Source: an uncultured Nitrososphaerota archaeon
Lineage (GTDB): Archaea; Thermoproteota; EX4484-205; JAAOZO01
NCBI GenBank assembly: GCA_964408285.1
Contig: CAYOYV010000006.1
Coordinates: forward strand, 11,274-75,273
DNA: 64,000 nt
Direction: 5' to 3'
Shown here one piece after another: positions 27,259 through 57,512 of this stretch. A program made the position numbers and the translations under genes. The notes beneath the pieces are model-generated. The model did no database searches. It had not been told where the DNA came from and saw nothing but the letters and a program-made list of their open reading frames with translations. How positions within the stretch are numbered: the stretch's first letter is position 1; each line of letters starts with the position of its first letter.

Positions 27259-27533
27259 TCTCTGTTGGAAGAATATGCAAGAAATTGGCAGGAAGAGATT
27301 CCGGGCAGAGGTGCGTGATCATCGACGTATTGGACACAAACTTCATAATGATTACTGGCCCAAAAAAGATCACAGGAGTCAGAAGGAGAAAGGTGAACAT
27401 GAATCATGTCTTGCCGCTTGGGAAATCAATAAGAGTGAGGAAGAATGCCTCGGACGATGCAGTTGCCTCTGCGCTGGAGCGGAGGAAGCTAATACCATTC
27501 ATGAAGGGTGAGGATGTTGAACCTGCTGAATGA
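27240..27533 (+). CDS. rpl14e: 50S ribosomal protein eL14
   Basis: GRICKKLAGRDSG and GVRRRKVN motifs. Confidence 0.93.
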   Translation: MAQLALISVGRICKKLAGRDSGQRCVIIDVLDTNFIMITGPKKITGVRRRKVNMNHVLPLGKSIRVRKNASDDAVASALERRKLIPFMKGEDVEPAE

Positions 27534-28521
27534 GCTGAGAAAACCTAGGAGGCTTGTCATAAGGGAAGAGTCAACGACATCTTGGGATTATGGCTGGAAC
27601 CCGAATCTAAGACGATTGGATCAATTGGTGGACTCTGGCGTAATAGTCCTTGACAAACAGAGCGGCCCCACCAGTCATGATTTTGTGGCAACCCTGAAGA
27701 GACTCCTGAATCTCAAAAAAGCCGGTCACAGCGGGACCCTTGAGTGAATTCGGGGAAATCCTGGCGTGACTGGAGTACTAATCGCGCTTTCCGGAGCAGC
27801 CACAAACCTGGTCCCATACTTGCATAGGCTAGGAAAGGAATATGTCGGAGTTGGGGAGCTGCATTCCGACGTATCAAAATCCAAACTTCAGGAAGCGATG
27901 GGTATATTCATAGGGCAGATATTCCAAAGACCCCCTGTTAGGGCTTCGGTCAGCAGGAAGTTAAGGACAAGATCTGTCTTCTACTTTGACCTTTTGGAAT
28001 ACGAGGATAGACGATTTCTTTTCAGGGTTGGAACGGAAGCAGGTACATACATAAGGAAATTGATACATGACCTTGGGCTGTTGACTGGATCGGGAGCTCA
28101 TATGGTTCAGCTTCGAAGGACTAGGGACGGCCCCTTCGGCGAGTCTCAATCACATGGGATGTGGAGCATCGCCTTGGCCCTTGAGATATATAGATCACGA
28201 AATGATGAGACCGAGCTAAGGAAAGTAATACTACCGATAGAATCGGCAATTGCTCTATATCCATCGATTTATATCAAGGACGGTGCAGTTTCTGCAGTGT
28301 GTCATGGCGCTAATCTCTCGATTGGTGGCGTCTCGTCATTTGAGGAACCTGTGGAAAAGGGAAACGTTGTTTGCGTGAAAACTCTCAAGGGCGAGCTAGT
28401 GGCAATGGCCAGGTCAGAGAAGGATTCTCATGGTCTGCTAAATGACAGAACTGGTCTAGCTGCAATCACCGAGAGGGTTCTAATGGATAGAGGGCTATAT
28501 CCAAAAATGTGGAGACAATAG
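27514..28521 (+). CDS. cbf5: H/ACA pseudouridine synthase Cbf5, interrupted by a 15-nt BHB intron (exons 27514-27742, 27758-28521)
   Basis: LDK.SGPTSH, GHSGTL[D]PGVTG, QRPP, GTYIR and a PUA domain; removing the intron gives a 330-aa ORF. Confidence 0.93.
27743..27757 (+). other. BHB mRNA intron in cbf5 (AGTGAATTCGGGGAA)
   Basis: GGGA-CCCU-[UG|A]...GGGG-[AA|A]-UCCU; excision restores the GAT codon of the catalytic Asp. Confidence 0.9.
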
Positions 28522-28526
28522 GCCTA

Positions 28527-28541
28527 GAGAAATCTTAATAT
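28527..28541 (+). promoter_or_regulatory. BRE/TATA promoter of the tRNA gene
   Basis: GAGAAATCTTAATAT about 25 nt upstream of the tRNA 5' end. Confidence 0.55.
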
Positions 28542-28564
28542 CACTTGAGGTTTTGGAATTCCAC

Positions 28565-28695
28565 GCCGAGGTGCCGAGTTGTCAAACACGGCAGGTGCCC
28601 GAATCTGGCCAAGGGGCAATGGAGCCTAAGCCTGGAGTGTCGTAGATAGCTTGTGAACCTTCGGGTTCTTATGGGTTCGAATCCCTTCCTCGGCG
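28565..28695 (+). tRNA. tRNA-Ser(GGA) with three putative introns (positions 6/7, 29/30, 37/38)
   Basis: Acceptor GCCGAGG/CCTCGGC, discriminator G, T loop TTCGAAT, long variable arm GAACCTTCGGGTTC; removing 28571-28594, 28620-28629 and 28638-28647 gives anticodon arm CAAGC-CTGGAGA-GCTTG. Confidence 0.8.
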
Positions 28696-28897
28696 CCTCC
28701 TTCTCTCTGTTAGTTTATTTCGTGCCCCTTCAGTTGAGGCCCCCCAATAGCGTTCCAATTTGCCTCAGTTCAAGTGTTAGTCTTCCAGTTCTGCAGTGCT
28801 TTGTACATGAGAATTAGCTATTCGAGCTGCGACGTATTTCCAGTAATGGATTTGCTTTATATCATCGCACGATGTTTTTTCTCGGAGGAGGATTCGA

Positions 28898-29881
28898 TTG
28901 ACACCCCAAAGAGTCAACTTCGGGGTTGACATGGGCCCCTTCCTTGGACTCGAAAGAAGCTTCTCGTTCTTAGCTAAGGCCGCAATGGAAACGGAAGGTC
29001 TCGGTTTTGACTCAGTCTGGGTTCCGGACCACGAGGTCGATCCGCTCTCGACTCTGTCATTTCTCAGCTCAGTCACAAAGAACATGAAGTTGGGCACATG
29101 TGTACTGATACCAGACCATAGACATCCGGCTTTATTGGCTAGAGAGATAGCTACTCTGGACAATCTCTCAGAAGGACGGTTGATTCTTGGACTCGGGGCT
29201 GGAGAAGGCAAGCAAATGTTCGGCACTCCGATTGACAGACCTGTTGCAAGGATGTTGGAGACGATCACTATAATCAAGAAACTGTGGCAGCATCCGAAGG
29301 TGACGCACCACGGCGATTTCTGGGAAATAAGAGACCATTCCCTAGAGTGCAACCCGCTGCAGCGACCTCATCCCCCGATCTGGATTGGCGCAAGTGGACC
29401 GAGAATGCTCGAGATAACAGCGAGGCATGCAAATGGCTGCTTTGGCCCTCAGCTTATCCCACAACAGTATCGAAATTGGTTGAACAGGCTGCACAGAATC
29501 GCGGGCGAAATCGGCAGAAACCCTGAAGAGATTATCCCGGCGCATTTGCCCTTCACAAGTATTTCAAAGGATCATGACCTGGCAGTCAAATGGATCGAAC
29601 CTTATGTGAGATGGTTCCTGGTATGGGCTTCTAAGCCTCCAAGCTCACTGCAGCAAATACTCGGTTACAAGGAAAGGTGGGAAAAAGAGGAAGATGTGCC
29701 GCGAGAAGCAATCGAGAGATGCTTCATTGTGGGAACACCAGAGGAGTGCACTGACAGAATAGAGGAATTTGTTCACAACGGCGCAAGCTACTTCGTGCTA
29801 GCGATTAGGGCTCCTGATGTAAAGAACTACTTGGAATCACTTGAGCTATATGCCAGAGAGGTATTGCCACACTTCAAGTAA
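28898..29881 (+). CDS. LLM class flavin/F420-dependent oxidoreductase
   Basis: GFDSVWVPDH, LDNLSEGRLILGLGAG and PPIWIG motifs. Confidence 0.9.
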   Translation: MTPQRVNFGVDMGPFLGLERSFSFLAKAAMETEGLGFDSVWVPDHEVDPLSTLSFLSSVTKNMKLGTCVLIPDHRHPALLAREIATLDNLSEGRLILGLGAGEGKQMFGTPIDRPVARMLETITIIKKLWQHPKVTHHGDFWEIRDHSLECNPLQRPHPPIWIGASGPRMLEITARHANGCFGPQLIPQQYRNWLNRLHRIAGEIGRNPEEIIPAHLPFTSISKDHDLAVKWIEPYVRWFLVWASKPPSSLQQILGYKERWEKEEDVPREAIERCFIVGTPEECTDRIEEFVHNGASYFVLAIRAPDVKNYLESLELYAREVLPHFK

Positions 29882-30029
29882 CCCACAGCGCGGTGGGGGC
29901 GCGAAGACTCGGGGGACTCAGGTTCTGTTTGAGCTGCTTGCCATATGAACGCTAAATCATCGGATGAGGATCAGCGACGGATCCTTCATCCCCTGGGTCG
30001 CGACCGCGGAACTGGGACTGGCGGGATGA

Positions 30030-30335
30030 AGATCATGGGGGAACGGATAAGGTCAATGCCTTTTGGGGAGAAAGAGTGAAGGAAGAATTGAGCAAGGGGC
30101 ATGTTCACTTCATAGCGTTTGATGGAAGAAAACCAGTTGATTTTTCAGCAACCCGGATAGATAAAGCCTCTATCGAGAGAAGAGGGGTGAAGCTGGGGGC
30201 GCTCTGAGGCGGAGTGGCGGTGCTTCCAGAATTCAGGCGCAAATATGTTGTTTCCAGGCTTCTGACGGAAGCTCTAGTGTTCCTCAAGAGCATACGGTAT
30301 GGAAAAAGCAATAGTCGGGACGTTCTGTTATCTAG
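30030..30335 (+). pseudogene. degraded GNAT acetyltransferase
   Basis: HFIAFDGRKPV...GAL*GGVAVLPEFRRK...LLTEAL; in-frame TGA at 30205-30207 and a later frameshift; boundaries approximate. Confidence 0.55.
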
Positions 30336-30494
30336 AGTCGACTACACTTGGCATAGATCTCTATTTGTAATCCGGTGGTAGGATAACGACTGAGCTAGCG
30401 AGTTTGACGAAAACTACGTAGCTCTCCGTTTTTTGCCATCGCGGATGTAGCTACGTTCAGAATCTTATATACGATTCGTACGTTCAGCCTATTA

Positions 30495-31886
30495 TTGCCG
30501 GAGAGGAAGGAATTAGCAATGTCGTCACGATCCTTCGAGGACATGACGCGGAAGGATTGGGTGATAGCAATCAGTGCGACGATGATAGTTGCACTTGCCT
30601 ATGGCATAGTCCTGTTCAGATATCCCCTCGTATATGGCATCGATAGTCCATACTATTTGATACAAGTCAGGTCAATACTCCGGACGGGGATGATATCATA
30701 TCCCGATCCCCCACTTTCATTCTATTTCTTCGCCCTATTGACAATGATCATCGGGGATTCAATGGTTGCTGTGAAGTTAGGTACAGTGCTATTCTGCGCC
30801 CTGACGGTGATTCCTTCCTATCTGATTGGCAAGAGGATAAGTGGGAGCACTCCGGCTGCAATAGCATCAGTTGTTGCTGCTTCGCTTTCGGCAGGTCTGA
30901 TGGTAATGAGCGGACAGCTTCTGAAGAATACCCTTGGTGTATTCTTCCTGATGAGCTTTATCTACCTGTGCCTTCGAATTCTGGAAGGAGACGAAAGCAA
31001 AACAACCAAAGGCGTGGCTATTGCTACATTCACGCTCACTGCACTGACTCATATACTAGACCTAGGGCTGGCTCTGCTCTATCTGATGCTCCTCTCAATC
31101 GCATCTTTGGTTATGGGCAGCACCAGGAGGAAGTTCCTTCATTTTTCTGTGCCGTTCTTAGTTGGGTGTGTCATGATCGGAGGGCTCGCCTACTTCGTGT
31201 ACGCAGGATACACGACAGATATAGGGAAGGGACTGATCTTTCTCCAGCAGTTCGTGGAGAATCTTGAGAACAACGATGTGTCGATATTGGCGGTCACTGT
31301 CCCGTCAAGAGCAGTTTCCTATCTGAGCGCTGCAATGGGTGTGGTAGGAGTTGCCATATACTACAGAAGAAAGAAGCCTGATGAGGCCGCGTTCATGGCT
31401 ATATCGACGATGGTTATTGTACTGCTGAACCTTCCATTCGTTCCAGACCAATTCTCTATGAGATTCACGTTGATGTCCTTCGTACCAATGTCCTCGATAG
31501 TGGCGGGATTGGCTGGCCTTATAGGAAGAAAGGGATTTCAATGGGGAGCGGTGGTTCTATTTGTTCCTCTATTTCTCTTGACACAAACTATTCCGGTGTC
31601 TAGAAAGTTAGGACCCATGATATCACCAGAGGAATACAATGATCTTCTGGAAATGGCCAATCTTATTCCTGAAGGAAGCAAGGTCATCGGAGGCAAGCCA
31701 GGAGCAGGATATTGGGTACTATACCTTCTAGATTCGGAGCAGTTCAAGCCATCGCCAGGCGAGATAATCGACTACCCGCTATACTTTGTCTCCGGTCCTG
31801 GGTGGAGGCCTGCACCACGGAATGCAATTTCAATCTACAGCGGAAACGCCCTCCACATGTATGTGATTCCGCCAGCAAGACGCTAG
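30495..31886 (+). CDS. multi-pass membrane protein, GT-C/PMT-like glycosyltransferase fold
   Basis: GID.PYY loop after TM1, DPPL, more than 10 TM segments. Confidence 0.55.
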   Translation: MPERKELAMSSRSFEDMTRKDWVIAISATMIVALAYGIVLFRYPLVYGIDSPYYLIQVRSILRTGMISYPDPPLSFYFFALLTMIIGDSMVAVKLGTVLFCALTVIPSYLIGKRISGSTPAAIASVVAASLSAGLMVMSGQLLKNTLGVFFLMSFIYLCLRILEGDESKTTKGVAIATFTLTALTHILDLGLALLYLMLLSIASLVMGSTRRKFLHFSVPFLVGCVMIGGLAYFVYAGYTTDIGKGLIFLQQFVENLENNDVSILAVTVPSRAVSYLSAAMGVVGVAIYYRRKKPDEAAFMAISTMVIVLLNLPFVPDQFSMRFTLMSFVPMSSIVAGLAGLIGRKGFQWGAVVLFVPLFLLTQTIPVSRKLGPMISPEEYNDLLEMANLIPEGSKVIGGKPGAGYWVLYLLDSEQFKPSPGEIIDYPLYFVSGPGWRPAPRNAISIYSGNALHMYVIPPARR

Positions 31887-31938
31887 TAGGTTGATCGCAG
31901 GCGAAAGCATCAATAAATGAATACGTAAAGACAACTGC

Positions 31939-32217
31939 GTGGCCTCGACCGTGAAGGCAACTGCCTTGGTCTTCAGCGCCAGAAAGAAGGCGAACTGCTA
32001 TGATTTTGCCCGAACCATGCTGGATGAAATGGAAAAAGAAGGAGTGGAAACGGAGCTAATTCGACTGTGTGATTACAGCATCAAGCCCTGCCAGAATTGT
32101 GACTACGAGTGCCTGGCGCGCATTGATCGCCCTGCCAGCAACAAAGAGCACGAGAAGTGTCCGATGAGAGATGATGTCGAATCCATTTGGCGCAAGGTAT
32201 GGCTGTTTTTCATCTAG
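31939..32217 (+). pseudogene. truncated iron-sulfur flavoprotein / NADPH-dependent FMN reductase
   Basis: SAR...N, IKPCQNCDYEC...CPMRDD motif; stops at 92 aa, before the rest of the flavodoxin fold. Confidence 0.6.
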
Positions 32218-32496
32218 GATCTCCCCCACATTTGACTATGTGCCCACTAGGCTACAGATAGACGGAAATGGAGCAAGGTCGTATAATCAGGAAAGGCGGT
32301 AGTGGTCTTGGAAACCAGGAACAGGCGAAGCATACGGAACTTCTCTCGTATGTATTACATCCCCTAATGAAACAGGTTTCCCCAAATACCGCATGGGGCA
32401 ACCTTCAATTCGCCCACTGGAATGGCAAGGGAGAGTCTGGGCTTAATTCGTTGAACGTTAAGTATTAATACGAGTCGACCTTTTCCTGCTGGTCGA

Positions 32497-32994
32497 ATGT
32501 CCGAGAAAAAGGAGTTCAGGGCCATAATAAGGATAGCAGGGACTGACTGTGACGGAGGTCTGAAGCTACCATATGGCCTAAGCAGGATAAAGGGAATTGG
32601 CAATAGCTTCGCCAATGCAATTATCCTATCCGCTGGCCTTTCTCCAGAAATGAGGCTAGGCTATCTCACTGATGATGAGGTCGCGAAGATCGAGGGAATA
32701 ATGCATGACCCAACATCTCACGGCATTCCGGTCTGGTTATTGAATAAGAGATCCGATCAGACGACTGGCAAGAGCGCACACGTTGTTGGATCGGATGTTG
32801 ACATCAGCACAAGATCCGACGTGGAGTTGATGAAGAAGATTGCCTCTTGGAAGGGCATCAGACATTCCCTTGGACTCAGGGTGAGAGGACAGAAAACAAA
32901 GACGAGCGGAAGGAAGGGAAGAGCGATAGGTGTAGTGAAGACAACTCTGTTTGCAGAGAGGGCAGCAATCGGAGAGCAAGCGGAGAAAAAATAG
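32497..32994 (+). CDS. rps13: 30S ribosomal protein uS13
   Basis: IKGIG and WKGIRHSLGLRVRGQKT motifs. Confidence 0.96.
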   Translation: MSEKKEFRAIIRIAGTDCDGGLKLPYGLSRIKGIGNSFANAIILSAGLSPEMRLGYLTDDEVAKIEGIMHDPTSHGIPVWLLNKRSDQTTGKSAHVVGSDVDISTRSDVELMKKIASWKGIRHSLGLRVRGQKTKTSGRKGRAIGVVKTTLFAERAAIGEQAEKK

Positions 32995-33007
32995 CCGGTG
33001 ACTTTGC

Positions 33008-33529
33008 ATGGGTTCTCCCCGAAGGATCAGAAGTTACCTGGTGGCACCTAGACAGCCATGGGTCAAGGAACGCATAGATCAGGAGCTTTCGCTCATAGGC
33101 GAATTCGGGCTGAGGTCAAAGAAGGAGCTCTACGCTGCGTCATCTATCTTGAGGAAAATGAGGGCCGCAGCACGTTCTTATCTGGCATTGCCCATCGAAG
33201 ATAGGGCGTCAAGGGAAAGGGAATTGATCTCTCGTCTCCACAAATTGGGTCTCGTCGAGGAAAATGCCTCCTTGGATGACGTTCTATCATTGGACATCAG
33301 GGCAATACTGAGTAGGCGACTTCAGTCCATAGTCCGGGCAAAGGGTCTAGCTAACTCTCTTCATGAATCAAGACAGCTGATCGTTCATGGAATGATAAAG
33401 GTGGGAGGCAGGGTGGTCAAGAACCCGAGCAGGCTTGTGACGAGAACTGAGGACTCCGAAGTTACCTCTAAGAAGGGCCAGGCAAAAACAGGAGCCACTG
33501 GAACGGAGAGCAGTGGCGTTCAGTCATAG
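33008..33529 (+). CDS. rps4: 30S ribosomal protein uS4
   Basis: PRQPW, FGLRSKKE, RRLQS and RQLIVHG motifs. Confidence 0.95.
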   Translation: MGSPRRIRSYLVAPRQPWVKERIDQELSLIGEFGLRSKKELYAASSILRKMRAAARSYLALPIEDRASRERELISRLHKLGLVEENASLDDVLSLDIRAILSRRLQSIVRAKGLANSLHESRQLIVHGMIKVGGRVVKNPSRLVTRTEDSEVTSKKGQAKTGATGTESSGVQS

Positions 33530-33604
33530 ACAAACGTGTCCCGACTGCTAATCTGGAAGGACCCCAGTCATTTTTTCATCACATAGCACGTGCCATTCCT
33601 CTTG

Positions 33605-34468
33605 TCAGAATCTGGCGTCCGGTGCCACTTCGTATGAACTCCTAATCGCCTCCCAATAAGTCTGGGGTGTTCCTATGTCAAATCTGGTCTCGTCTTGCCT
33701 CAGTTTCACTGCATGTACATTGGTGCCGAGTTCAATCAACCTCTGTATCGCATCAGTCAACTGCAATTCGCCATGTAGGCCGGGCCTGATCGCTTTCAGT
33801 TCCGAGAAAATCATGGGTTTGAAGACATACAACGGGACTACCGCGAGATTGCTTCTTGGAGCCTCTGGCTTTTCCACGGCAGAGACGACCTTGAGATGAC
33901 CTGAATCGTCCGTTACCTCGACGACTCCATACTTCCTCGGATCCTCGACCTCCAATACGACCAAGGAGGCTGAGTCATCGGTTGAATGATGAAGTTGCAT
34001 CAGTCTCTTCACGAGGTCATTCTCCCTTGAGGATACGAATGTATCTCCCGCTGCCACCAAAAAGTCATCATCACCGACGAAATCCTTTGCCAAAAGAACT
34101 GCGTCTCCAAAACCTTTGGGAAAAGGTTGATTTATCCAGATGATACTCGATTTCTCGACTCTTTCATAGAAGGATTTCATCTCTTCGTGCAGTTCGGGCT
34201 TTCCAGAAGTCTGCAGGTAGGCTAGGAAATCATAGTCTGGAGTGAAGTGATCCTCTATTGCCCTCTTGCCGCGACCAACAATGAAGCAGAATTCAGCAAG
34301 CCCGCAAACGCATAGCTGCTCGAAAAGAGCCTGCAGAAGCGGCTTCAAAGTCATACCATTCTTTCCTGCAGAGAAGACAGGTAGCATTTCCTTGGGCAAT
34401 TCCTTGCTCATTGGAAGCAGCCTCGTTCCCAGGCCGGCCGCGGTTATCACTGCCTTCCTGATATGCAT
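33605..34468 (-). CDS. galU: UTP--glucose-1-phosphate uridylyltransferase-like sugar nucleotidyltransferase
   Basis: KAVITAAGLGTRLLP..K..PKEMLP, VEKP and ELQLTDAI motifs. Confidence 0.85.
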   Translation of the reverse strand: MHIRKAVITAAGLGTRLLPMSKELPKEMLPVFSAGKNGMTLKPLLQALFEQLCVCGLAEFCFIVGRGKRAIEDHFTPDYDFLAYLQTSGKPELHEEMKSFYERVEKSSIIWINQPFPKGFGDAVLLAKDFVGDDDFLVAAGDTFVSSRENDLVKRLMQLHHSTDDSASLVVLEVEDPRKYGVVEVTDDSGHLKVVSAVEKPEAPRSNLAVVPLYVFKPMIFSELKAIRPGLHGELQLTDAIQRLIELGTNVHAVKLRQDETRFDIGTPQTYWEAIRSSYEVAPDARF

Positions 34469-34572
34469 ACCAATTGCTCCCTGCGTCTTCAACAAATTAA
34501 AAGGTTTGTTAGTGTGGTTTGACGATAGGTTTACATGAACCCAATTGCTTCAGCGGATGGGAAGACCTCAGA

Positions 34573-36589: not shown

Positions 36590-36650
36590 CACGGATTGGG
36601 AGTCCCTGAACAACCTAGAATGCGCCATTGCTTCTTTCATCCATCTCTGC

Positions 36651-39000: not shown

Positions 39001-39147
39001 TATAGATTGCTTGCGTGAAGCATCTCTAGAGCAAGGAGCTGCGATCTCCCTCGGGCATTTTCCACGTTCAAACCGAAGTGATCGGCCATCCTAGTGTTAA
39101 TTCTCACTTTACTTATAAGTGGCTTCTATTGCTCACCGTAAGTATAA

Positions 39148-40350: not shown

Positions 40351-41507
40351 TCACTTGATGCGCCTCGCGGCGGGGGTTTTGATTAGGGCGATCATCGCAA
40401 CTGCAGAAACAAGGGAGGTAAAGAAGCTGTACGTGAAAGGAGCGGATGGGCCGATTGTGTCCCAAAGATACCCGACAACGATATTCGCGAACAAGTAGCC
40501 CACTCCAACGACCAGGTAATAGATTCCATATGCGGTCCCACGAAGGCTTTCATCCGTAAAGGTCGGTACTGTTGCCCTTTGCACGGTCTCGATTGTTCCA
40601 AAGTAGAGACCGAACAACGCGGCCACAACTAACACCTGTAGTATTCCATTCGACAGAAGAATCAATATCAAATCCCCGCAGCCTAGGATGAGATATCCAA
40701 GTGCCAGAACCTTCCCCCTCCCTATCCTATCAAATAATGCTCCTGCTGGTATCCCTATAATTGCATGGAATATGTTAATCAACATATAGACTCCAGGAAC
40801 ATATTGCTCAGGAATTCCTGCCTCGCCAGCTCTGATGAGGATAAAGGAAAAATTGAACGCCCCGATGGAGAAAAGGGCAACAATGGCCAGGAACTTCAGA
40901 AACTCGGGGGAAAGGGACCGTCGAATGTCTCCCAATGGAGTTTCTCCTGGTCTGACAGAAGCGGCCTCCTTCACGAAGAAAAGCAACACGAAAAGGGCAA
41001 GTGCCCCTGGTAAAAGCGAGAAGACGAATAGGCCTCTGAAGGAAAGAATCGGCAGCAGAAGGATAGCCAACAGTGGGCCCAGGATTGCGCCTGACTGGTC
41101 CAACGTCCTGTGAATGCCAAACACCTTTCCCAGAGACTCCTTGGGCACTGAGGCGCTGAGAAGTGAGTCTCGCGGGGCCGTTCTGGTGGCCTTGCCAACC
41201 CCGTCCATAAATCTAATGATCAAGACATTCGTCCAATCTGTTGCAGTTGCGAACAAAGGTTTTGTCAGAGTTGACAGCATATATCCCAACAACACCAAGG
41301 GTTGCGCTTTCCAGTGCGATCCGATATGAAACCGGATAGCATCCTAAGAAGGTAGCTGGAGGATTCTGCAATACCCTCAATGAGGCCTAGTTCGATCTTT
41401 GTTCCTCCAAGTTCCTGAACTACGAAGGATGGGAGCACGCTGAATATCATTTCGCTTGAAACATCGGTCAGGAAACTTGTGGCCCCGAGTGCGTATACAT
41501 TCCTCAT
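40351..41507 (-). pseudogene. MFS transporter with a single-base frameshift near 41300
   Basis: SFLTDVSSEM...SDRTGKR in one frame and PLVLLGY...RTAPRD in the other; one base is missing from the expected Lys codon. Confidence 0.75.
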
Positions 41508-41700
41508 GTCGTTCTCCTGCTGTTGCTTAGCCTGCATCGGGATATCGCCTCTTCACTTCTGGCACGAAATAAAACTGTTCAGATCCTGACATGCGGAATG
41601 ACGTTTTTCAACAAGGAGTAGGCTAAGTTTCAAGGGAAGTACTCAACGGAGGAATGGTAGTCAATCTTTTGATATTCAGATGTCCATGGGACATTCTTAA

Positions 41701-47826: not shown

Positions 47827-47864
47827 GGGGATTGGCGAAGGATTGACCACCGGTTTAAAAAGCT

Positions 47865-50071: not shown

Positions 50072-50072
50072 C

Positions 50073-50246: not shown

Positions 50247-50602
50247 TTCTTGACACCAGCCTTCGCTGCCTTAGCTTCGACTTTCTTCTTCTTCATTTCT
50301 TCTATTGCCGCCTTCCTTGCCTGAGGTTCCATGTTCGCCAAGATCACATGTTTGGGCTCGGATTTCCTCATCTCTTCCTCTGTCCCATAGATATGTGCCT
50401 CCCCTTCACTTGAATCGATCCCACTCTTTCCATGGATTCTCACCACCGCAACTCCATCGGGCTTGAAACCTCCGGCCGCAGCCAAGGCACTTCTAGTTTC
50501 CCAAATCGAAGGGGTAGGTTGCGAAGTCCGCCCGATCCTGAATCTGACCTTCTTCCTCCCCAGCAGCTTCATATCCGAAATGTCCAATATCCTAATCTCC
50601 AT
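50243..50602 (-). CDS. rps24e: 30S ribosomal protein eS24
   Basis: LLGRK, TPS and G.AHIY...EPKH motifs; cluster position. Confidence 0.85.
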   Translation of the reverse strand: MEIRILDISDMKLLGRKKVRFRIGRTSQPTPSIWETRSALAAAGGFKPDGVAVVRIHGKSGIDSSEGEAHIYGTEEEMRKSEPKHVILANMEPQARKAAIEEMKKKKVEAKAAKAGVKK

Positions 50603-50628
50603 GGCGCCCAGCCTCTTTCCACGGGAAA

Positions 50629-51198
50629 TTAAGGCTTTTGCCGAGAAGTGCGTGGTATCTGAGGGAATGACGCGAGAAGTTCTCGAATTCGCTTCTTGAT
50701 CTCGGGTTGAATCCTTATCACGACCATTCCCTTGGCGGGTTGGCCATAGATCACCAGTGTGCCCTCTTCACTCACATCAATCGCAACGGCCGCAAGAAGA
50801 TCCTCCTCTCCCTCGACGAGCACTAGGCTATTCGGACCCTCTGTCATGGCGGTCTTCAGCACTGACCAAGCCGCTGTGTTGATGTGACCAGCCGGATTTC
50901 TCAGGAAGAATTTCCTCCGAAAGCGCTCTGTTTCGAAATCTGCTTTCTTCCTCTGTATCCTCAGATCGATTATCGCTGCCTGAAATGAAACCTCTCCTTT
51001 GATCAGAGTCTGAGTGACTACGTCGCCCACGCTGAAAGAGATCCCTTCTGAACTGCCCAAGTATCTCTCTCTAAGAATTCGAACTGCCTCCTCGGGCCTC
51101 GCCTCGACCAGATCTCCGAGGGGGGCAGAGAGGATTTCCCTCTGGGACGGAGTAGGACGTAGATAGGATTCGTCTGACTCAATGAGCCTTGATGGCAT
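50629..51198 (-). CDS. GTP-dependent dephospho-CoA kinase (DUF359)
   Basis: VGDVVT, NPAG.I, GEEDL and YGQP motifs. Confidence 0.88.
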   Translation of the reverse strand: MPSRLIESDESYLRPTPSQREILSAPLGDLVEARPEEAVRILRERYLGSSEGISFSVGDVVTQTLIKGEVSFQAAIIDLRIQRKKADFETERFRRKFFLRNPAGHINTAAWSVLKTAMTEGPNSLVLVEGEEDLLAAVAIDVSEEGTLVIYGQPAKGMVVIRIQPEIKKRIRELLASFPQIPRTSRQKP

Positions 51199-51364
51199 AT
51201 CGCCCTACCTTCTTGGCTCCTATCTGTCTTGCGATCGAAGAGCTCTCAGGATCGACCACAAAGACCACTCCGGACCAGTCGGTCGTGAAGCTGTTGGATC
51301 CGCAGTTCGGACAGGTCTGGTCATTCGTTATGAACTTACATTTCAGGCAGGCTTTTTCTCTCAA
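51179..51364 (-). CDS. spt4: transcription elongation factor Spt4 (RpoE'')
   Basis: ACLKC...CPNCGS...WSG...GRYAIK. Confidence 0.93.
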   Translation of the reverse strand: MREKACLKCKFITNDQTCPNCGSNSFTTDWSGVVFVVDPESSSIARQIGAKKVGRYAIKAH

Positions 51365-51939
51365 GTTGTCTCACCTGCCTTCTCAGCAACAGCCAATTTC
51401 CTGAGGTCGTGATCGATCCATTCCGCCTTGCCCAAGAAGGGTTGCCTCGTTGTGACACCTATCCTGTCGCCACCAGTAGCACCACCTATGGAGACGGCAG
51501 TCACTCTTAATCTGACCCAATCCCCGACTGAAAGTACCCTTGCGTTTTTCCTACCAGTCAATACAGCCTGCGCCTTGTTGAAGTCCACATAATCATCCAT
51601 AACGGAGCTGACATGTAGCAGAGCCTCGAAGGGACCTATCCTCACGAAAGCGCCATATTCTTCTATCTCGACGACCCTACCAAGCATGACCTCTTGTACC
51701 TCAGGAACAAACGTCAGAACCTTGAACTTCGCTTTGTGATATGATCCCCCATCGCCCGGGGCCAGTTTCCCCTTATAATCGAAATCGAAGGAGACCACCC
51801 CTGCGACAAAGCCCAGATCATCGAAGACCACTCCTTCATATTTCTCGACGAGGAGCGACCTTATTGCCTCCTCTATAGGCTTCCCGTATAGTTCGGGGGG
51901 AATCCTGACTATGTCCTCCAAAGTGATAAGCTTAAACAA
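51361..51939 (-). CDS. rpoE1: DNA-directed RNA polymerase subunit Rpo7 (E')
   Basis: VRIPP, GDGG, S1 domain and RQPFLGK motif. Confidence 0.95.
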   Translation of the reverse strand: MFKLITLEDIVRIPPELYGKPIEEAIRSLLVEKYEGVVFDDLGFVAGVVSFDFDYKGKLAPGDGGSYHKAKFKVLTFVPEVQEVMLGRVVEIEEYGAFVRIGPFEALLHVSSVMDDYVDFNKAQAVLTGRKNARVLSVGDWVRLRVTAVSIGGATGGDRIGVTTRQPFLGKAEWIDHDLRKLAVAEKAGETT

Positions 51940-52024
51940 TTTCCCTAAACTCCGCCCTTTTCATCTGTTCTTATCTTTTTCCCTGAATGGAATCCGTTCC
52001 CGATCTAGGGCGCGAAATGACTTT

Positions 52025-52465
52025 TCAACATAAAGGCTTATTGTCAATCATTATTCTTTTTCCCTTTGAGACGAAGATGACAGTCATTCCCCTTTTCTTG
52101 AGCTTACTCCTTAGAGAGGAGTCGGCAGTGGCCACTGCTGCATCCAGTCGCTGTGCCAATTTGATTATACTCTCGTCCTCTGGCAGGCCTCTTTCAGATC
52201 TCAGGCTCCTCAGGTTCATGGCAAAATCCAAGGCCTTCCGTGAAGCAATGGCCAAAAGAGGTTTGTTTCCACCCTGGAGCTTCCTCAGCTCACTTATGGT
52301 GCCCTCCGTCACTACTAGTTCGTAGCGGCCCTCGAGAGCATGTTGAATTCCTTTCACGAAATCCACGCGCTTCTGGAACGGGTATAGCAACGCACTCGTG
52401 TCCAGTATGACAGGTAGCTTCCTCGCTCTGCTCAAACTACTTTCCCGTATCCTATTAGCCTCCAT
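52025..52465 (-). CDS. PIN domain protein (Fcf1/Utp24-like)
   Basis: VILDTS...EL...D...VATAD; conserved position after aIF2gamma. Confidence 0.8.
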   Translation of the reverse strand: MEANRIRESSLSRARKLPVILDTSALLYPFQKRVDFVKGIQHALEGRYELVVTEGTISELRKLQGGNKPLLAIASRKALDFAMNLRSLRSERGLPEDESIIKLAQRLDAAVATADSSLRSKLKKRGMTVIFVSKGKRIMIDNKPLC

Positions 52466-53679
52466 CGCCTCTCGAAAAGCCTACTTACAGTTGCCCTCTG
52501 GCCAATCTGGGCAACTATCGGGATCTCCAGATTCAGTTCGGCTATCTTGCCCTTCTTCGAAGTGATAGTGCCCCTGCTTGTCCCAACTCCCACGTTCAGA
52601 TTCAGCTTTTCTCCCACTGAAACTGGCTTGACCTCCTGAAGGCTTTCTGTCCCTAGCAGTTTTTCAAATAGCTCCAACTCAAGCCCGAGTGCCCTCACAA
52701 CGGGAAGTGGATTGTCAGAAGGCGAGAGAATAGAACCAGAAAGCCTATCGTTCTTCGCAAGGGCTGGATCAAGAGACGTGCCGACTGCTATGAGCCCTCC
52801 TGCATTGGCCTCGTCCAATGAGGCACCATCGAACATAATGGAACCGACAGTGCTCTCCAAGAGCAGATTGGAGTAATTCGGACTCGTTCCCCTTAACCAT
52901 CCCGGTGAGATGAGAATTCGATCCCCTAAGGAGAGTTTGCCACTTGTGATAGATCCCCCAACGACCCCGCCATTTATCTGCTCCAATGGAACCCCAGGCC
53001 TGTTCACATTGAACGACCTTATGATTGGCATCCTAAGCTGGGCATTCGGATCCCTCTTTGGATTCGGAAAATATTCCTCTAGGGCCCACATCAATATATC
53101 TATATTGAGACTTCTCTCGGCAGAAACCGGTATCACTGGGGACTGACCGTAACCTGCTTCAGAAAGAAATTGGGCTATCTGCTTCTGATTCTGGATCGCA
53201 GTTTCCCTGTCGACCAGGTCTACCTTGTTCTGAATGACCAGAATCTTCTCAAGGCCTAGGACTTTGGCTGCATAGAGATGTTCCCTTGTCTGTGGTTGAG
53301 GACAGTCCTCATTTGCGGCTATTATAAGGAGTGCGCCGTCCATTATTGCGGCTCCACTGAGCATGGTCGTCATTAGCACTTCGTGGCCTGGGGCATCGAT
53401 GAATGAGATGCTCCTGACGAACTCACATGTATGTCCTTTTGGGCAGGTTGCTCGCGTAAAGTAATTGTAAGGGGGATCGCAGGTGTTGCACTTGTACACC
53501 GACATCATCGCGTAACCGAGCTTTATCGTTATGTTCCGAGCAATCTCTTTGCTATATCTACTCGTAAAGACTCCTGTCAGTGCTTTCACAAGGGAAGTCT
53601 TGCCGTGGTCGACATGGCCTAAGGTCCCTATGTTGATTTCTGGTTTTCTCAGCACCAATTCGATGAAGCCCGTCTTCAC
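52432..53679 (-). CDS. eif2g: translation initiation factor aIF2 subunit gamma
   Basis: [21 protein letters not shown], QTREH and RWRLIG motifs; real start probably near 53658. Confidence 0.96.
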   Translation of the reverse strand: [415 protein letters not shown]

Positions 53680-53680
53680 T

Positions 53681-53695
53681 TATAGAAAAGCCTTA
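53681..53695 (-). promoter_or_regulatory. putative BRE/TATA promoter of aIF2gamma
   Basis: Minus strand TAAGGCTTTTCTATA; near-identical copy upstream of S6e. Confidence 0.5.
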
Positions 53696-53786
53696 TCGTA
53701 GGTGTCCGGCCTCACTCGATATCGTCTGACTGTTTTCCGTCCAACCTTTCAGGAATGGCCTAGCCCAGCGTGTGTGAATGAAGTAC

Positions 53787-54137
53787 CTATTCGATCTTGA
53801 CTAGGTTCACTTGGCTGGTTTCTTCTGAGATTTGTTCTCCCCTTATCGTCGCCCGTATGAGTTCGCCCTTCTTGGCTCGCCTCGTTCCCGTTCCTCTCTT
53901 TAGCAGGATATGCCTCTTTGCCGGCCCATGAATTCCGCTCAGCATCGGAAGGCCCGATGTGTCTGATCCTCCTGTTATCTGAAGTCTCTCCCCGGGTCTC
54001 TTGATCGCAGAACCTTCTATTATGTCTCCTATCTTGCGTCCCAGAAGGGGTGTTGCGTCCGATCCTTCCAACACCAGATTCTCCATTTTCCCCGTTTTCT
54101 TATCCACCACGATATCGACTTTCATTCTTGCCGGCAA
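53787..54137 (-). CDS. rps6e: 30S ribosomal protein eS6
   Basis: LLGRKIGD, ITGGSD.SG.PM and QVNL motifs. Confidence 0.92.
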   Translation of the reverse strand: MPARMKVDIVVDKKTGKMENLVLEGSDATPLLGRKIGDIIEGSAIKRPGERLQITGGSDTSGLPMLSGIHGPAKRHILLKRGTGTRRAKKGELIRATIRGEQISEETSQVNLVKIE

Positions 54138-54161
54138 TTTTCGCCTGACGCCGTCGTTGGG

Positions 54162-54176
54162 TATAGAAAAGTCTTA
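54162..54176 (-). promoter_or_regulatory. putative BRE/TATA promoter of rps6e
   Basis: Minus strand TAAGACTTTTCTATA, 25 nt upstream of the TTG start. Confidence 0.5.
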
Positions 54177-54304
54177 CCTCATACTGCACTGGTAGGTTGC
54201 CTTGGACGGGAGGCAAGGACTTATCTGCACCAGAGGAAAGACGCCTTTGAGCAAGCGATGTCCCGATCATTAATGCAACGGTTGAAGGCAGTGAGGCGAT
54301 CTTC

Positions 54305-55672
54305 ATGAGCATACTGATTGTGGATTCGAGGAAGCAGCTCTTCATCGACGATCGCTTTATCCAGTCATCCCAAGGAGTCGTTTTGTCGGTTAACGAAGCA
54401 CGGAAATACCAAGAACCGGTCCTCATCGCGGACCGCCCTTGGGAAAGCATGTGCATAGGCGGCTATAGCACAGTGATGGAGGAGAACGGACTTTACCGCC
54501 TGTGGTATGAGGCCTATGCTTCAGACTATAGGGAGGATTATGATGCGAAGCTATGCTATGCGTTTTCATACGATGGCATTCATTGGGAAAAACCTGCTCT
54601 AGGGCAATCTGAATTTCAAGGCTCAAGGGACAACAACATTGTGTTTGACGACTGCCATAATTTCGGCTATCATGGCGGAACTGTGTTTAAGGATCCAATA
54701 GCCAGCCCTGAGGAAAGATACAAGGTCCTCTACCAAGCCAGGGGAGGAACGCGATCGGATCAATCCAACGCCTGCATGCGAGGAATATACTCGAAAGACG
54801 GAATAAGATGGGTCAAGTACCCAGGCATTCTTGCAGATCACCTAAGCGATACTCAGACTGTTGTTCACTATGACGAGGATTCAGGCAGATACGTTGGTTA
54901 CTTCCGAGTCTGGACAGAGAAGGGATATCGTGCCATAGGTCGCTCTGAGACGCCAGATTTCCTTTGTTGGCCCAGAGACCCAGAATTGATCTTGGCCCCG
55001 GATCAAAATGACCCTACAGACATCCACCTATACACGAACGGTTACAGATCCTATCGCGTGGCCCAAGATGCACATATCTTTGTGATCTCCAGCTTCCATG
55101 CGACAACAGATCTCGTTGATGTTCAGCTTGCCACAAGCCGTGATGGTATTTCGTGGCGTAGACCTGATCGCCGCCCCCTCATACGCCTTGGAGAGGAAGG
55201 GACTTGGGACAGCGGGCAGATCTATGTAGGTGCCGGAACCATAGATAAAGGCAGTGAGCTCTGGGTCTATTACACCGGATTCAGACATGGACACGGGGAG
55301 AACAGGCCGGATGTCATAAGTTACGAGGGAAAAATAGGAATAGCGAAAATTCGAAAGGACGGGTTCATGTCAGCCGAAGCTGGACCTCAGGGTGGCTTTG
55401 TCATGACCCCCCTCCTGAAGTTCTCCGGCAGCCATCTGGAATTGAATTACGATGCCGGAACAGAAGGAGAGGTTTCGGTTGAGCTGCTTGGCGAGGATCT
55501 CATTCCCATCAGGGCTTTCTCAGGGCCCGATTGTGATCCGCTTCACGGTGATTCAACCACCAAGACTGTGACATGGAAAGGTAATGACGACTTGGGCCAT
55601 ATTGCCGGAAGACCCACGCACCTCCGCTTCAATATGAGAGATGCCAAGCTCTTCGCGTTCCACTTCTTCTGA
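54305..55672 (+). CDS. five-bladed beta-propeller glycoside hydrolase-like protein
   Basis: KQLFIDD N-terminus, repeated S.DG..W (Asp-box-like) motifs, R.DGF. Confidence 0.65.
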   Translation: MSILIVDSRKQLFIDDRFIQSSQGVVLSVNEARKYQEPVLIADRPWESMCIGGYSTVMEENGLYRLWYEAYASDYREDYDAKLCYAFSYDGIHWEKPALGQSEFQGSRDNNIVFDDCHNFGYHGGTVFKDPIASPEERYKVLYQARGGTRSDQSNACMRGIYSKDGIRWVKYPGILADHLSDTQTVVHYDEDSGRYVGYFRVWTEKGYRAIGRSETPDFLCWPRDPELILAPDQNDPTDIHLYTNGYRSYRVAQDAHIFVISSFHATTDLVDVQLATSRDGISWRRPDRRPLIRLGEEGTWDSGQIYVGAGTIDKGSELWVYYTGFRHGHGENRPDVISYEGKIGIAKIRKDGFMSAEAGPQGGFVMTPLLKFSGSHLELNYDAGTEGEVSVELLGEDLIPIRAFSGPDCDPLHGDSTTKTVTWKGNDDLGHIAGRPTHLRFNMRDAKLFAFHFF

Positions 55673-55686
55673 TCTTGCGTGCGGAC

Positions 55687-57512
55687 TCACTTCAGGTATC
55701 CCCAATAGGGTTCCTTCTGTCTCTTTATCTTGGTTATTTCCTCGATGGCATCCAACATGTCTTGCGTGGCGAACTGGGACAGGTTCGTCTTTAGGGAAAT
55801 CGCATCTGAAGCCCTGATCTCAACGTACAATGTCTCTCCTTCCTGCACATTTCTTCCCATGACGGCCTCCTTAATGGATATCGACACCTCATCCCCCTTC
55901 TTTGCCTCATTGACCGACTGATCCTGCAGCCTTATGGAGTCAATAGCTCCTATTCTTTCGCCACCTTCACTAATCAAGTTGGAACCTTGTCGCATCAATC
56001 CCTTTTCAACCCTTACCCCGAATATGGCTGGTTTGCTCCTCCTAAAGACAAAGCCTGGCATTATGAACAGCTTGGCGGGCGTGACCAACTTTGAGAAGAG
56101 CTCTTCAGCTGTAGCCTTCTCATAGCTAGTCTTCCAGGAGAAGTATTCATCCATCAGGCCGTATATGACCTTACCCGTCATTATCCTGACTCCCAAGTCT
56201 CTTGCCGCCTCCTCTGCCTCCCCTGTTACGTCTACGTTGAACGCAATTATCACCCTCTGAGTCATGTCTCCGGATGCCGTTGAGGCGCCAATGACATCCT
56301 TCTTGGTTACAGGACCTATATCCGCCATCCTCACCTTGATCGCCTTCGATTGAAGCTCAGGGACAATCGCCTCAAGCGCCCCCAACGTATCGGCCTTCAG
56401 GATTATGCCTTGGATTTCCGTCTTGAACAGGATGGAGGACACCTCTTGCGACAATTCCTCAATTGCTCTTCTCTGTTCCTCCAAAGTATTGCAGACTATT
56501 ACGCTTGAGCCAGCCAGTGCGCCGGCTAGATCTGGGCCACTCAACTTTATTCCGCTGGAGGCCCTCATCTGTGCAACTGAATCAAACCTGTCCCTGGGGT
56601 CGCGTATTTCATCCAATGGCTTAGGAGAAAGAAGGGCCCGAACCTTTGTGACCGTTGGTCCGGTTAACGTTGTGAGTGCGATGGAATCGCCCACCTTGAT
56701 GATGCCGTCATATACGATGACGTTTATCGTTGTGCCCAACCCAACATCCTCCGTTACCTCGAGGACTACGCCCTTGCCCCTGTTCGACTTTGTCTCCAAG
56801 GATTTCGTTTGGAAGGACTGAATCATTCCCGACATGACCGCGATCAGTTCCGCGATTCCCTCTCCCGTCTTAGCGCTGACAGGGACAACTGGATTCTTAT
56901 CCTTGAAATCACTCAGAGAATAGAACAAATCCGTAGTTAGGCCAAGCTTGGATACCTGCCCTACGATATCATACAGCTTCTGCTCGAGCAATTTTCTTGT
57001 ACCTGGTTCCTGCTCCTTGATTGCCTTTAGGAATGAAAGAGAACTGGACGGACGCCAACCTCTCGTGAGATCAATCTTGTTTGCCGCAATGACGAAAGGA
57101 GTCTTTCTTGACCTGAGTATCTCAATAGACTCTATGGTCTGGGGCATGACACCGGCCGTGATGTCTATTACAAGGATCGCAAAGTCTGCTATTGATCCCC
57201 CCCGTTTTCTCAAATTCATGAACGCTTCATGACCAGGTGTGTCAATTACCAATAGCCCCCCGATTTTCAGCCTTGAAGCCACTTCAATTCCCTCTATCTG
57301 GCCCACGACATCAACCAATGTGTCTAGTGGAAGATATGAGGCCCCAACGTGCTGGGTTTGGGACGGTTTCTACCGCTATCCCCCCGGCTTCCCTTTTGGC
57401 CACTAAGGTGCCTCTTATCTTATCCAGAAGGGACGTCTTGCCATGGTCCACATAGTCCCCAGACATGCAAGGTATGACCTAGAACCACGACTATGGGTTC
57501 CCTTAGGCGCAA
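55687..57512 (-). CDS. infB: translation initiation factor aIF5B/IF2 with two BHB introns (exons 57512-57474, 57451-57377, 57357-55687)
   Basis: GGGGTGAT RBS, TTG start; spliced product [44 protein letters not shown]...DTPGHEAF, 594 aa. Confidence 0.92.
57358..57376 (-). other. 19-nt BHB mRNA intron 2 of aIF5B (GCGGTAGAAACCGTCCCAA)
   Basis: GGG-GGGA-[UA|G]-CGGU-agaa-ACCG-UCCC-[AA|A]-CCC. Confidence 0.9.
57452..57473 (-). other. 22-nt BHB mRNA intron 1 of aIF5B (ACCTTGCATGTCTGGGGACTAT)
   Basis: UCUA-GGUC-[AU|A]-CCU...GGG-GACU-[AU|G]-UGGA. Confidence 0.87.

What the first reader, a model, noticed from the sequence alone, without database searches (positions are those of the whole stretch)
27514..57512. 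Candidate system: BHB micro-introns splicing mRNAs of essential genes beyond cbf5
Seen: three 15-22 nt insertions sit in two housekeeping genes (cbf5 and aIF5B). Each folds as a 4-bp helix between two 3-nt bulges, and cutting after the second bulge nucleotide restores the reading frame and an invariant motif in all three cases. A multi-intron tRNA lies next to cbf5. Established: archaeal EndA cleaves BHB motifs in this way and RtcB ligates the exons; the only archaeal protein-gene introns I know to be established are the crenarchaeal cbf5 introns. Inference: this lineage uses its tRNA splicing machinery on multiple mRNAs, with introns in catalytic motifs. Such genes would be auto-annotated as pseudogenes, and splicing could tie translation capacity to endonuclease activity.
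Basis: partly seen in the sequence, partly recalled or inferred. Interest (0 to 1): 0.95.

Follow-up and report, generated by a model that had tools for sequence, protein, structure and literature searches.

The report
tRNA-type micro-introns in essential archaeal mRNAs
An uncultured archaeon related to Brockarchaeota carries tiny tRNA-style introns in the active-site codons of several essential protein genes, a kind of gene interruption so far documented in archaeal coding sequence only for cbf5.

Summary
cbf5 carries a 15-nt insert (27743-27757). aIF5B carries a 22-nt insert (57452-57473) and a 19-nt insert (57358-57376). Each forms a bulge-helix-bulge (BHB). Cutting after the second bulge nucleotide restores GTL-D-P, [8 protein letters not shown] and GGI-TQH. 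The neighbouring tRNA-Ser(GGA) has three introns.

A genome-wide homology scan found three more such introns: in aIF5A at the hypusine lysine codon, in DnaG, and in CTP synthase. Each of the five genes gives only one match in the assembly.

The introns recur at the same codons in independently assembled relatives. Their lengths differ and base changes are compensatory:
- cbf5: 28 of 30 loci.
- DnaG: 23 of 23 loci in the order.
- aIF5B intron 2: 10 of 30 loci.

Intron-less relatives have uninterrupted DNA that encodes the predicted junction motif. The genome encodes a two-subunit EndA with the crenarchaeal specificity loop, and an intact RtcB.

The cbf5 intron sits at the already published site. 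The other five are not in the literature I searched. No RNA data were available, so splicing is inferred, not shown. This is a new member of a known kind, of high interest. The idea that splicing regulates these genes is untested.

The parts
27514..27742 (+). cbf5 exon 1 (229 nt), ends with the first letter (G) of the catalytic Asp codon
   Evidence: Pfam DKCLD domain
27743..27757 (+). cbf5 BHB micro-intron, 15 nt, contains the in-frame TGA; relaxed form with an 8-nt loop in place of the inner helix
   Evidence: same site in 28 of 30 loci
27758..28521 (+). cbf5 exon 2 (starts with AT of the Asp codon; stop codon included)
   Evidence: frame open with no second interruption
28573..28697 (+). 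tRNA-Ser(GGA) gene with three introns: 28579-28594 (16 nt, position 6/7), 28620-28629 (10 nt, 29/30), 28638-28647 (10 nt, 37/38)
   Evidence: an intron-less tRNA-Ser(GGA) lies beside cbf5 in relative G034
57474..57512 (-). aIF5B exon 1 (TTG start, 13 codons, ends ...LGH)
57452..57473 (-). aIF5B intron 1, 22 nt, full BHB, splits the P-loop between GH and VDHGKT
   Evidence: bridged without gaps by DNA contigs of runs X3 and X4
57377..57451 (-). aIF5B exon 2 (25 codons, VDHGKT...EAGGI)
57358..57376 (-). aIF5B intron 2, 19 nt, full BHB, splits GGI from TQH (switch I)
   Evidence: bridged without gaps in X3, X4 and X6
55687..57357 (-). aIF5B exon 3 (556 codons plus stop)

Best explanation
These are genuine archaeal bulge-helix-bulge introns in pre-mRNAs. 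After transcription, the exon-coded strand of a 4-bp helix pairs with the 3' part of the insert, leaving a 3-nt bulge on each side. The genome's two-subunit (alpha-beta)2-type splicing endonuclease EndA cuts between the second and third nucleotide of each bulge. RtcB then joins the exons and probably circularises the 15-23 nt intron. This restores the reading frame and the active-site motif of Cbf5, aIF5B (two introns), aIF5A, DnaG and CTP synthase. Shown here: the geometry, the exact register, conservation with compensatory changes, one match per gene, and presence of the enzymes. Inferred: cleavage and ligation in the cell. I think the introns persist mostly as tolerated, selfish or constraint-locked insertions in a lineage whose tRNA genes are also heavily interrupted, not as a dedicated regulatory device. 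That last point is opinion.
For: (1) Register. At six sites fixed by protein homology, a BHB with canonical cuts gives the conserved motif: GTL-D-P, [27 protein letters not shown] and GGVLSS-V-GKG. The same test passed in 28 to 299 of 20,000 shuffles per site.
(2) Recurrence in relatives, 30 loci examined per gene. cbf5 28 of 30 (11-34 nt). aIF5B intron 1 in 6 of 30, all in the family. aIF5B intron 2 in 10 of 30. DnaG in 23 of 23 order-level loci and 0 of 7 outside the order. CTP synthase in 3 of 30. aIF5A in 2 of 30.
(3) Covariation. aIF5B intron 2: 92.9% of cells paired against 26-53% when partners are slid, and 6 pairs changed on both sides. The exon-coded strand GGGA becomes GCCA while the intron strand UCCC becomes UGGU. 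DnaG: 91.8% against 35-56%, 8 pairs changed on both sides.
(4) Intron-less relatives carry uninterrupted DNA that encodes the predicted junction motif.
(5) One match per gene in G000, which is 93.7% complete. The proteins are otherwise intact (E = 4.6e-144 and 1.1e-82 against solved structures).
(6) Machinery. The EndA alpha subunit is closest to the S. tokodaii and A. pernix catalytic subunits, with Lys/Lys aligned to A. pernix K44/R46 of the specificity loop. A second, non-identical EndA-like gene is present, and RtcB is intact.
(7) The inserts are in DNA contigs of other samples, with no gap or joint.
(8) tRNA genes of the same genome carry the same kind of intron.
Against: No RNA evidence: no listed run holding this stretch is on record as RNA. 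Folding energy is unremarkable for 5 of the 6 sites (z from -1.17 to +0.88). Two introns are relaxed forms: cbf5 lacks the inner helix and aIF5A lacks the outer helix. In G002 and G004 the DnaG intron has a G.A mismatch in the central helix. My intron finder required 4 of 4 central pairs, so that helix is 100% paired partly by construction. The CTP synthase intron was found only by the BHB-conditioned scan. BHB-like motifs that merge open frames show no genome-wide excess over shifted registers (62,958 against 62,923-64,311; 495 against 452-519), so this is a handful of introns, not a genome-wide phenomenon. Relatives are kin, not independent samples.
Confidence: 0.88

Rival explanations
1. 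The interrupted genes are decaying pseudogenes, or the insertions are sequencing or assembly artefacts.
For: The same genome does hold ordinary lesions: a 1-nt frameshift in an MFS transporter, a decayed ATPase remnant with two in-frame stops, an in-frame stop in a cation-efflux gene and a scaffold gap of N. The assembly is a 46-contig draft.
Against: Five essential genes each give one match and have no lesion other than the insert. The inserts recur at identical codons in many independent assemblies, with different lengths and sequences. Contigs of other runs carry them without gaps. Chance does not give a BHB in register six times.
Confidence: 0.02
2. The inserts stay in the mRNA and the ribosome recodes around them by translational bypassing or hopping, or by frameshift plus read-through.
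For: The inserts are short (15-23 nt) and hold a small hairpin, as the bypassed gap of phage T4 gene 60 does (recalled, not from a call). No RNA data exclude it.
Against: By my own reading of the sequences, I see no matching take-off and landing codons flanking the inserts. The conserved features are those of an EndA substrate: two 3-nt bulges 4 bp apart, with the exon strand co-varying with the intron strand. Lengths vary from 11 to 41 nt between relatives at one site. The same architecture interrupts tRNA genes, which are not translated. The cbf5 site is the one where splicing was shown experimentally in Crenarchaeota, according to PMC2738675 (sections 3 and 8).
Confidence: 0.04
3. EndA cuts at these BHBs, but mainly to inactivate or process the mRNA; ligation to a translatable message is rare or conditional.
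For: Splicing endonucleases also act in rRNA processing and on one Haloferax 5' UTR (PMC7714728 passages). All six introns lie within the first 13-77 codons (my count), where cutting would abort expression early.
Against: With one match per gene for aIF5B, aIF5A, DnaG, Cbf5 and CTP synthase, the cell needs the joined product. The cuts restore frame and motif exactly. RtcB is intact.
Confidence: 0.05

Closest known systems
Crenarchaeal cbf5 pre-mRNA intron (Watanabe 2002; Yoshinari 2006; Yokobori 2009, PMC2738675)
   Same: The insertion point is identical: between the first and second letter of the catalytic Asp codon (Methods passage; here G27742 | A27758). The cleavage motif is a relaxed BHB. 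The cut falls between the 2nd and 3rd bulge nucleotide, and the endonuclease is hetero-oligomeric.
   Different: The paper lists the intron only in Desulfurococcales and Sulfolobales, at 16-44 bp, and scores Thermoproteales, Cenarchaeum, Nitrosopumilus and Korarchaeum as 0. Here it is 15 nt (11-34 nt in relatives) in a lineage of the same order as a genome whose aIF5B contig coincides with a record titled Candidatus Brockarchaeota. I could not see the paper's Additional file 1 with species and sizes.
Non-canonical and multiple tRNA introns cut by (alpha-beta)2 EndA with the Crenarchaea-specific loop (PMC3241643)
   Same: Same motif, same relaxed variants (bulge-helix-loop), same enzyme type. 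The window's own tRNA-Ser(GGA) has introns at 6/7, 29/30 and 37/38. The EndA alpha subunit keeps the loop lysine.
   Different: The substrates here are open reading frames. The exon strand of the helix is also a codon string, and the product must keep its reading frame.
BHB intron in the 5' UTR of Haloferax volcanii HVO_1309 (Schwarz 2020, PMC7714728)
   Same: An mRNA processed by the tRNA splicing endonuclease; the authors say that only cbf5 had been reported before.
   Different: It lies in an untranslated leader, in a euryarchaeon, and does not interrupt a codon.
IRE1-dependent HAC1/XBP1 mRNA splicing in eukaryotes (mentioned in PMC13149111; details recalled)
   Same: Spliceosome-independent removal of a very short intron from an mRNA by an endonuclease plus an RNA ligase (RtcB in animals, recalled), which changes the reading frame.
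   Different: A different nuclease and a different RNA motif; one stress-regulated substrate. No evidence here for regulation.
Inteins and homing introns in conserved motifs of essential genes (recalled, no call)
   Same: They sit in the most conserved, active-site-coding parts of housekeeping genes and have a patchy distribution among relatives.
   Different: These inserts are 10-41 nt, encode nothing and are removed at RNA level by host enzymes. No mobility mechanism is known.

Membership tests
Archaeal BHB intron (EndA substrate) | Two 3-nt bulges on opposite strands separated by a 4-bp helix | tested here: met
   6 of 6 G000 sites have 4 of 4 central pairs, with 0-2 G-U each. In G002 and G004 the DnaG intron has 3 of 4.
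Archaeal BHB intron (EndA substrate) | Cleavage between bulge nucleotides 2 and 3 gives a functional junction | tested here: met
   In silico only. Frame and invariant motif are restored at all six sites; intron-less relatives have uninterrupted DNA encoding the same motif.
Archaeal BHB intron (EndA substrate) | Flanking outer (h) and inner (h') helices of the strict hBHBh' form | tested here: inconclusive
   Both helices of at least 3 bp in aIF5B introns 1 and 2, DnaG and CTP synthase. cbf5 has no inner helix and aIF5A no outer helix. Such relaxed forms are accepted by (alpha-beta)2 enzymes according to PMC3241643.
Archaeal BHB intron (EndA substrate) | Base pairs kept by compensatory change among homologues | tested here: met
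   Caveat: the central helix was a selection criterion.
Archaeal BHB intron (EndA substrate) | Cleavage by EndA and ligation by RtcB seen in vivo or in vitro | not testable with these tools
   No listed run is on record as RNA.
cbf5 intron of Crenarchaeota | Insertion between letters 1 and 2 of the catalytic Asp codon | tested here: met
   against the PMC2738675 Methods passage.
cbf5 intron of Crenarchaeota | Sequence descent from the Desulfurococcales/Sulfolobales intron | not tested
   No named crenarchaeal cbf5 intron sequence was fetched. The taxonomy of the 'same phylum' relatives that carry it is unknown.
(alpha-beta)2 heterotetrameric EndA | Two different EndA-fold genes, one catalytic | tested here: met
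   PF01974 hits of 105 and 68 bits. The 194-aa protein is closest to catalytic subunits 2cv8 and 3p1z_B. In the 217-aa protein the aligned position of the catalytic His region is not His, by my reading of the alignment.
(alpha-beta)2 heterotetrameric EndA | Crenarchaea-specific loop with the conserved Lys | tested here: met
   Query ...PKPKN... aligns to A. pernix ...EKPRG... (K44, R46) without a gap (role of K44 from PMC3241643).
(alpha-beta)2 heterotetrameric EndA | Assembly as a dimer of heterodimers | not tested
   No complex prediction was run.

The most novel reading that the evidence does not exclude
BHB micro-introns in this lineage are more than tolerated debris. They may be gained repeatedly at, or spread to, the most conserved active-site codons near the 5' end of core genes for translation initiation, replication and nucleotide supply, somewhat as inteins do but at RNA level. 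Production of aIF5B, aIF5A, DnaG, Cbf5 and CTP synthase would then depend on EndA/RtcB activity, which couples growth-limiting functions to the RNA-repair and tRNA-maturation state of the cell. Hints: all six introns lie in the first 13-77 codons and inside signature motifs; aIF5A has an intron at the same lysine codon in two distant genomes but in none of the five family relatives; aIF5B intron 2 has a patchy distribution.
Probability: 0.15. Interest if true: 0.95.

Novelty: new member of a known kind. Interest (0 to 1): 0.8.

Why it matters
In the papers I read, splicing of a coding sequence by the tRNA machinery in Archaea rests on a single gene, cbf5. A 2020 paper still calls it the only earlier example, and a 2025 paper cites only the cbf5 work for pre-mRNA. 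Five further introns in four other essential genes, conserved across an order of uncultured archaea, would show that this route is a general way to interrupt protein genes.

The practical effects are direct. Standard gene callers would presumably report such genes as split or as pseudogenes; I ran no gene caller. Marker-gene completeness estimates and phylogenomic alignments for these lineages would suffer accordingly.

It also gives a defined test set (15-23 nt introns, known enzymes) for asking how splicing is timed against coupled transcription and translation. It lets one ask whether exon codon choice is constrained by the need to form the helix: 8 of 8 carriers of the GGGA-type helix (the two g13 genomes excluded) share GGGGGGATA and ACCCAG, while 0 of 13 intron-less relatives have that exact string (kin are not independent). 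Finally, it reopens the question of how such introns are gained.

Tried and rejected
**Searches that gave no signal or no answer**
- Genome-wide BHB plus ORF-merging scans without homology gave no excess over shifted-register controls. They cannot find introns on their own.
- Counts of loci with high homology gain were equal across registers (30, 30 and 24 at gain >= 40). Any deletion of the right length near a real break scores, so that control is uninformative.
- Of 854 in-frame insertions relative to G026, 59 were BHB-like. Only cbf5 and DnaG carry a stop. A 30-nt BHB-like in-frame insert at C16:3858 was not resolved.

**Candidates rejected as introns**
- The MFS transporter at window about 41289 is a 1-nt frameshift.
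- The ATPase at C5:74827/75187 has no upstream domain in any frame.
- The HSP pair on C13 is a run of N.
- The stop at C27:6461 has no BHB that keeps conserved residues.
- Apparent second breaks in relatives' cbf5 were artefacts of alternative frames.

**Second reference genome.** The partial G032 reference (722 kb, 370 ORFs with hits) gave no new intron.

**tRNA and RNA-family tools.** ARAGORN and Rfam see no tRNA in the unspliced window. Removing BHB candidates with perfect central helices in combinations of up to three found nothing. The tRNA was solved only by comparison with an intron-less orthologue.

**Sequencing runs.** No RNA holder is listed for the aIF5B stretch. Contigs cannot show rare intron-less DNA variants.

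**Not run or not available.** No structure or complex prediction was run. The supplementary files of PMC2738675, which hold intron sizes by species, could not be seen.

Full report
**What is in the window.**
The window is contig C6:11274-75273 of a 1.82-Mb, 46-contig genome that is 93.7% complete. cbf5 runs from 27514 to 28521 on the + strand and has an in-frame TGA. Compared with solved Cbf5 structures (E = 1.1e-82), the only defect is a 5-residue insertion exactly at the catalytic GTLD-P.

aIF5B starts with TTG at 57512 on the - strand and is spread over three frames.
- The long ORF aligns to solved aIF5B (E = 4.6e-144) only from TQH onward.
- Its Pfam GTPase match starts at profile position 71 of 188, so it lacks the P-loop.
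- tblastn with the intact aIF5B of relative G026 places residues 1-13 and 13-38 in the two other frames just upstream.

The inserts are 27743-27757 (15 nt), 57452-57473 (22 nt) and 57358-57376 (19 nt).

**Bulge-helix-bulge geometry.**
In a BHB the last six exon letters are a 4-nt helix strand plus two bulge letters. The last six intron letters are the partner strand plus two bulge letters. The published cut lies between the 2nd and 3rd bulge residue (PMC2738675, section 8). Read in this way:
- cbf5 gives CCCU UG|A ... GGGG AA|A, with a 5-bp outer helix.
- aIF5B intron 1 gives GGUC AU|A ... GACU AU|G, with an outer helix of 4 bp and an inner helix of 3 bp.
- aIF5B intron 2 gives GGGA UA|G ... 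UCCC AA|A, with an outer helix of 3 bp and an inner helix of 4 bp.

These cuts restore GTL-D-P, [8 protein letters not shown] and GGI-TQH. With the cut fixed by homology, a BHB appeared in 65, 299 and 28 of 20,000 shuffles. Ordinary folding energy is not a useful statistic here: only cbf5 stands out (z = -4.86), and the two aIF5B sites gave -1.17 and +0.88.

**The neighbouring tRNA.**
ARAGORN and Rfam find nothing in the unspliced window. Relative G034 has an intron-less tRNA-Ser(GGA) beside cbf5. Aligning it showed three inserts in the window copy:
- 16 nt at position 6/7,
- 10 nt at 29/30,
- 10 nt at 37/38.

After all three are removed, ARAGORN at default settings calls an 89-nt tRNA-Ser(GGA). 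Over the whole genome ARAGORN finds only 12 intron-less tRNAs, and 21 candidates when introns are allowed. This fits a genome in which most tRNA genes are interrupted.

**More intron-bearing genes.**
I fetched the complete genome of relative G026, in which both genes are intact, as a reference and ran tblastn with its ORFs against G000. I then scored BHB candidates near the ends of matches by how much the spliced product improves the alignment. Besides the three known sites, three more stood out:
- DnaG: 21 nt, C15:5546-5526, with an in-frame stop.
- aIF5A: 19 nt, C14:36146-36128, cut inside the hypusine lysine codon of SKPG-K-HG.
- CTP synthase: 23 nt, C1:204650-204628, in GGVLSS-V-GKG, with 6-bp and 5-bp flanking helices.

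Among strict BHBs the alignment gains were 97, 55, 53 and 45. A chance alternative inside aIF5B scored 34, and all others scored 10 or less. DnaG and aIF5A were also flagged without any BHB criterion; CTP synthase was not.

A partial second reference (47% of G032, containing none of the five genes) added nothing. Motif-only scans show no genome-wide excess. The system is therefore a handful of introns, not hundreds.

All six introns lie in the first 13-77 codons and inside signature motifs. My method favours conserved genes, so part of the motif pattern may be ascertainment.

**Relatives.**
In 30 loci per gene drawn from 40 relatives:
- The cbf5 intron is present in 28 of 30 loci, at 11-34 nt.
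- aIF5B intron 1 is present in 6 of 30, all in the family.
- aIF5B intron 2 is present in 10 of 30, including two genomes of another family in which the protein reads GAM-TQH. There the helix has changed on both strands, from GGGA/UCCC to GCCA/UGGU.
- The DnaG intron is present in all 23 order-level loci and in none of the 7 outside the order. It measures 18-41 nt, and in two genomes the helix carries one mismatch.
- The CTP synthase intron is present in 3 of 30 loci.
- The aIF5A intron is present in G000 and in one distant genome, where it is 35 nt and the helix again differs on both strands.

Formal pair counts:
- aIF5B intron 2: 92.9% paired, against 26-53% for slid partners.
- DnaG: 91.8% paired, against 35-56%.
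- 6 and 8 pairs respectively changed on both sides.

My finder demanded a perfect central helix, so that helix is paired partly by selection; the outer and inner helices were not fully required. Intron-less relatives have uninterrupted DNA that encodes the predicted junction motif.

**Ruling out artefact and decay.**
Each of the five genes gives one match in G000. DNA contigs of runs X3 and X4 bridge both aIF5B introns with no differing letters, no gaps and no joints; X6 bridges intron 2. X2 may be the source sample and is not counted. The genome does contain ordinary lesions, and they look quite different from these inserts.

**Machinery.**
There are two EndA-fold genes.
- The 194-aa protein is closest to the catalytic subunits of the S. 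tokodaii and A. pernix enzymes. It keeps Lys/Lys at the positions of A. pernix K44/R46 in the loop that confers broad specificity, including bulge-helix-loop substrates (PMC3241643 abstract and passages).
- The 217-aa protein looks like the structural subunit.

RtcB is intact at 494 aa.

**Lineage.**
The best named record for aIF5B is a MAG titled Candidatus Brockarchaeota (47% identity; taxonomy).

**Comparison with what is known.**
PMC2738675 (abstract; sections 3 and 8; passages) places the crenarchaeal cbf5 intron between the first and second letter of the catalytic Asp codon. It gives a size of 16-44 bp, reports it in Desulfurococcales and Sulfolobales, and scores other groups as 0. The intron here is at that same site, so the cbf5 part is a known intron in a new lineage.

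For the other genes I found nothing in seven full-text searches. PMC7714728 (passages) states that only cbf5 had been reported before its own Haloferax 5' UTR case. The reference list of PMC12397907 (2025) cites only the cbf5 papers for pre-mRNA. Subscription journals and supplements were not searchable.

**Verdict.**
cbf5 is already known. aIF5B (two introns), aIF5A, DnaG and CTP synthase are new members of the known class of BHB pre-mRNA introns. Splicing itself and any regulatory role remain to be shown.

Noticed in passing
window 41265-41310 (-), ORFs 40351-41298 and 41265-41537: An MFS transporter (Pfam MFS_1 on both pieces) is split by a simple 1-nt frameshift in ...AACCCTTGGTG..., with no insert and no BHB. 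It may be a sequencing error, a pseudogene or a programmed frameshift.
   Followed up: partly
window 28573-28697 (+): tRNA-Ser(GGA) has three micro-introns at positions 6/7, 29/30 and 37/38, two of them only 10 nt long. An 8-nt direct repeat of the acceptor 5' end lies just upstream (28565-28572).
   Followed up: yes
whole genome G000: ARAGORN finds only 12 intron-less tRNAs, and 21 candidates when introns are allowed, several of them dubious. This is in a 93.7% complete genome, so most tRNA genes are probably hidden by non-canonical introns.
   Followed up: partly
G000 C5:74800-75400 (+): A remnant of a PilT/KH-type ATPase has two in-frame stops, one inside the P-loop codons, and no recognisable upstream domain in any frame. 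It looks like a decaying gene.
   Followed up: partly
G000 C27:6461 (-): A cation-diffusion-facilitator gene has a single in-frame TAA replacing a residue. There is no insertion and no convincing BHB. Unexplained.
   Followed up: partly
G000 C16:3858 (-): A 30-nt in-frame insert without a stop has a BHB-like fold (8-bp inner helix). The reference ORF is the first on G026; it was not identified. It could be an in-frame intron or simply extra residues.
   Followed up: no
aIF5B intron 2 site in relatives (alignment A2; loci L032-L059): The 8 carriers of the GGGA-type helix (the two g13 genomes excluded) all share the exon letters GGGGGGATA and ACCCAG. None of the 13 intron-less relatives has that exact string; they vary at synonymous positions. 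This suggests that the helix constrains codon choice. Kin are not independent.
   Followed up: partly
six intron sites of G000: All six mRNA introns lie within the first 13-77 codons of their genes, and the bulges are A-rich; the third 3'-bulge letter is usually A in the relatives.
   Followed up: partly
window 26671-27533 (+) and 57554-58012 (-): By my reading of the ORF translations (not checked against any profile), cbf5 is preceded by a cytidylate-kinase-like ORF and an L14e-like ORF that overlaps its start by 20 nt. aIF5B is preceded by a nucleoside-diphosphate-kinase-like ORF.
   Followed up: no
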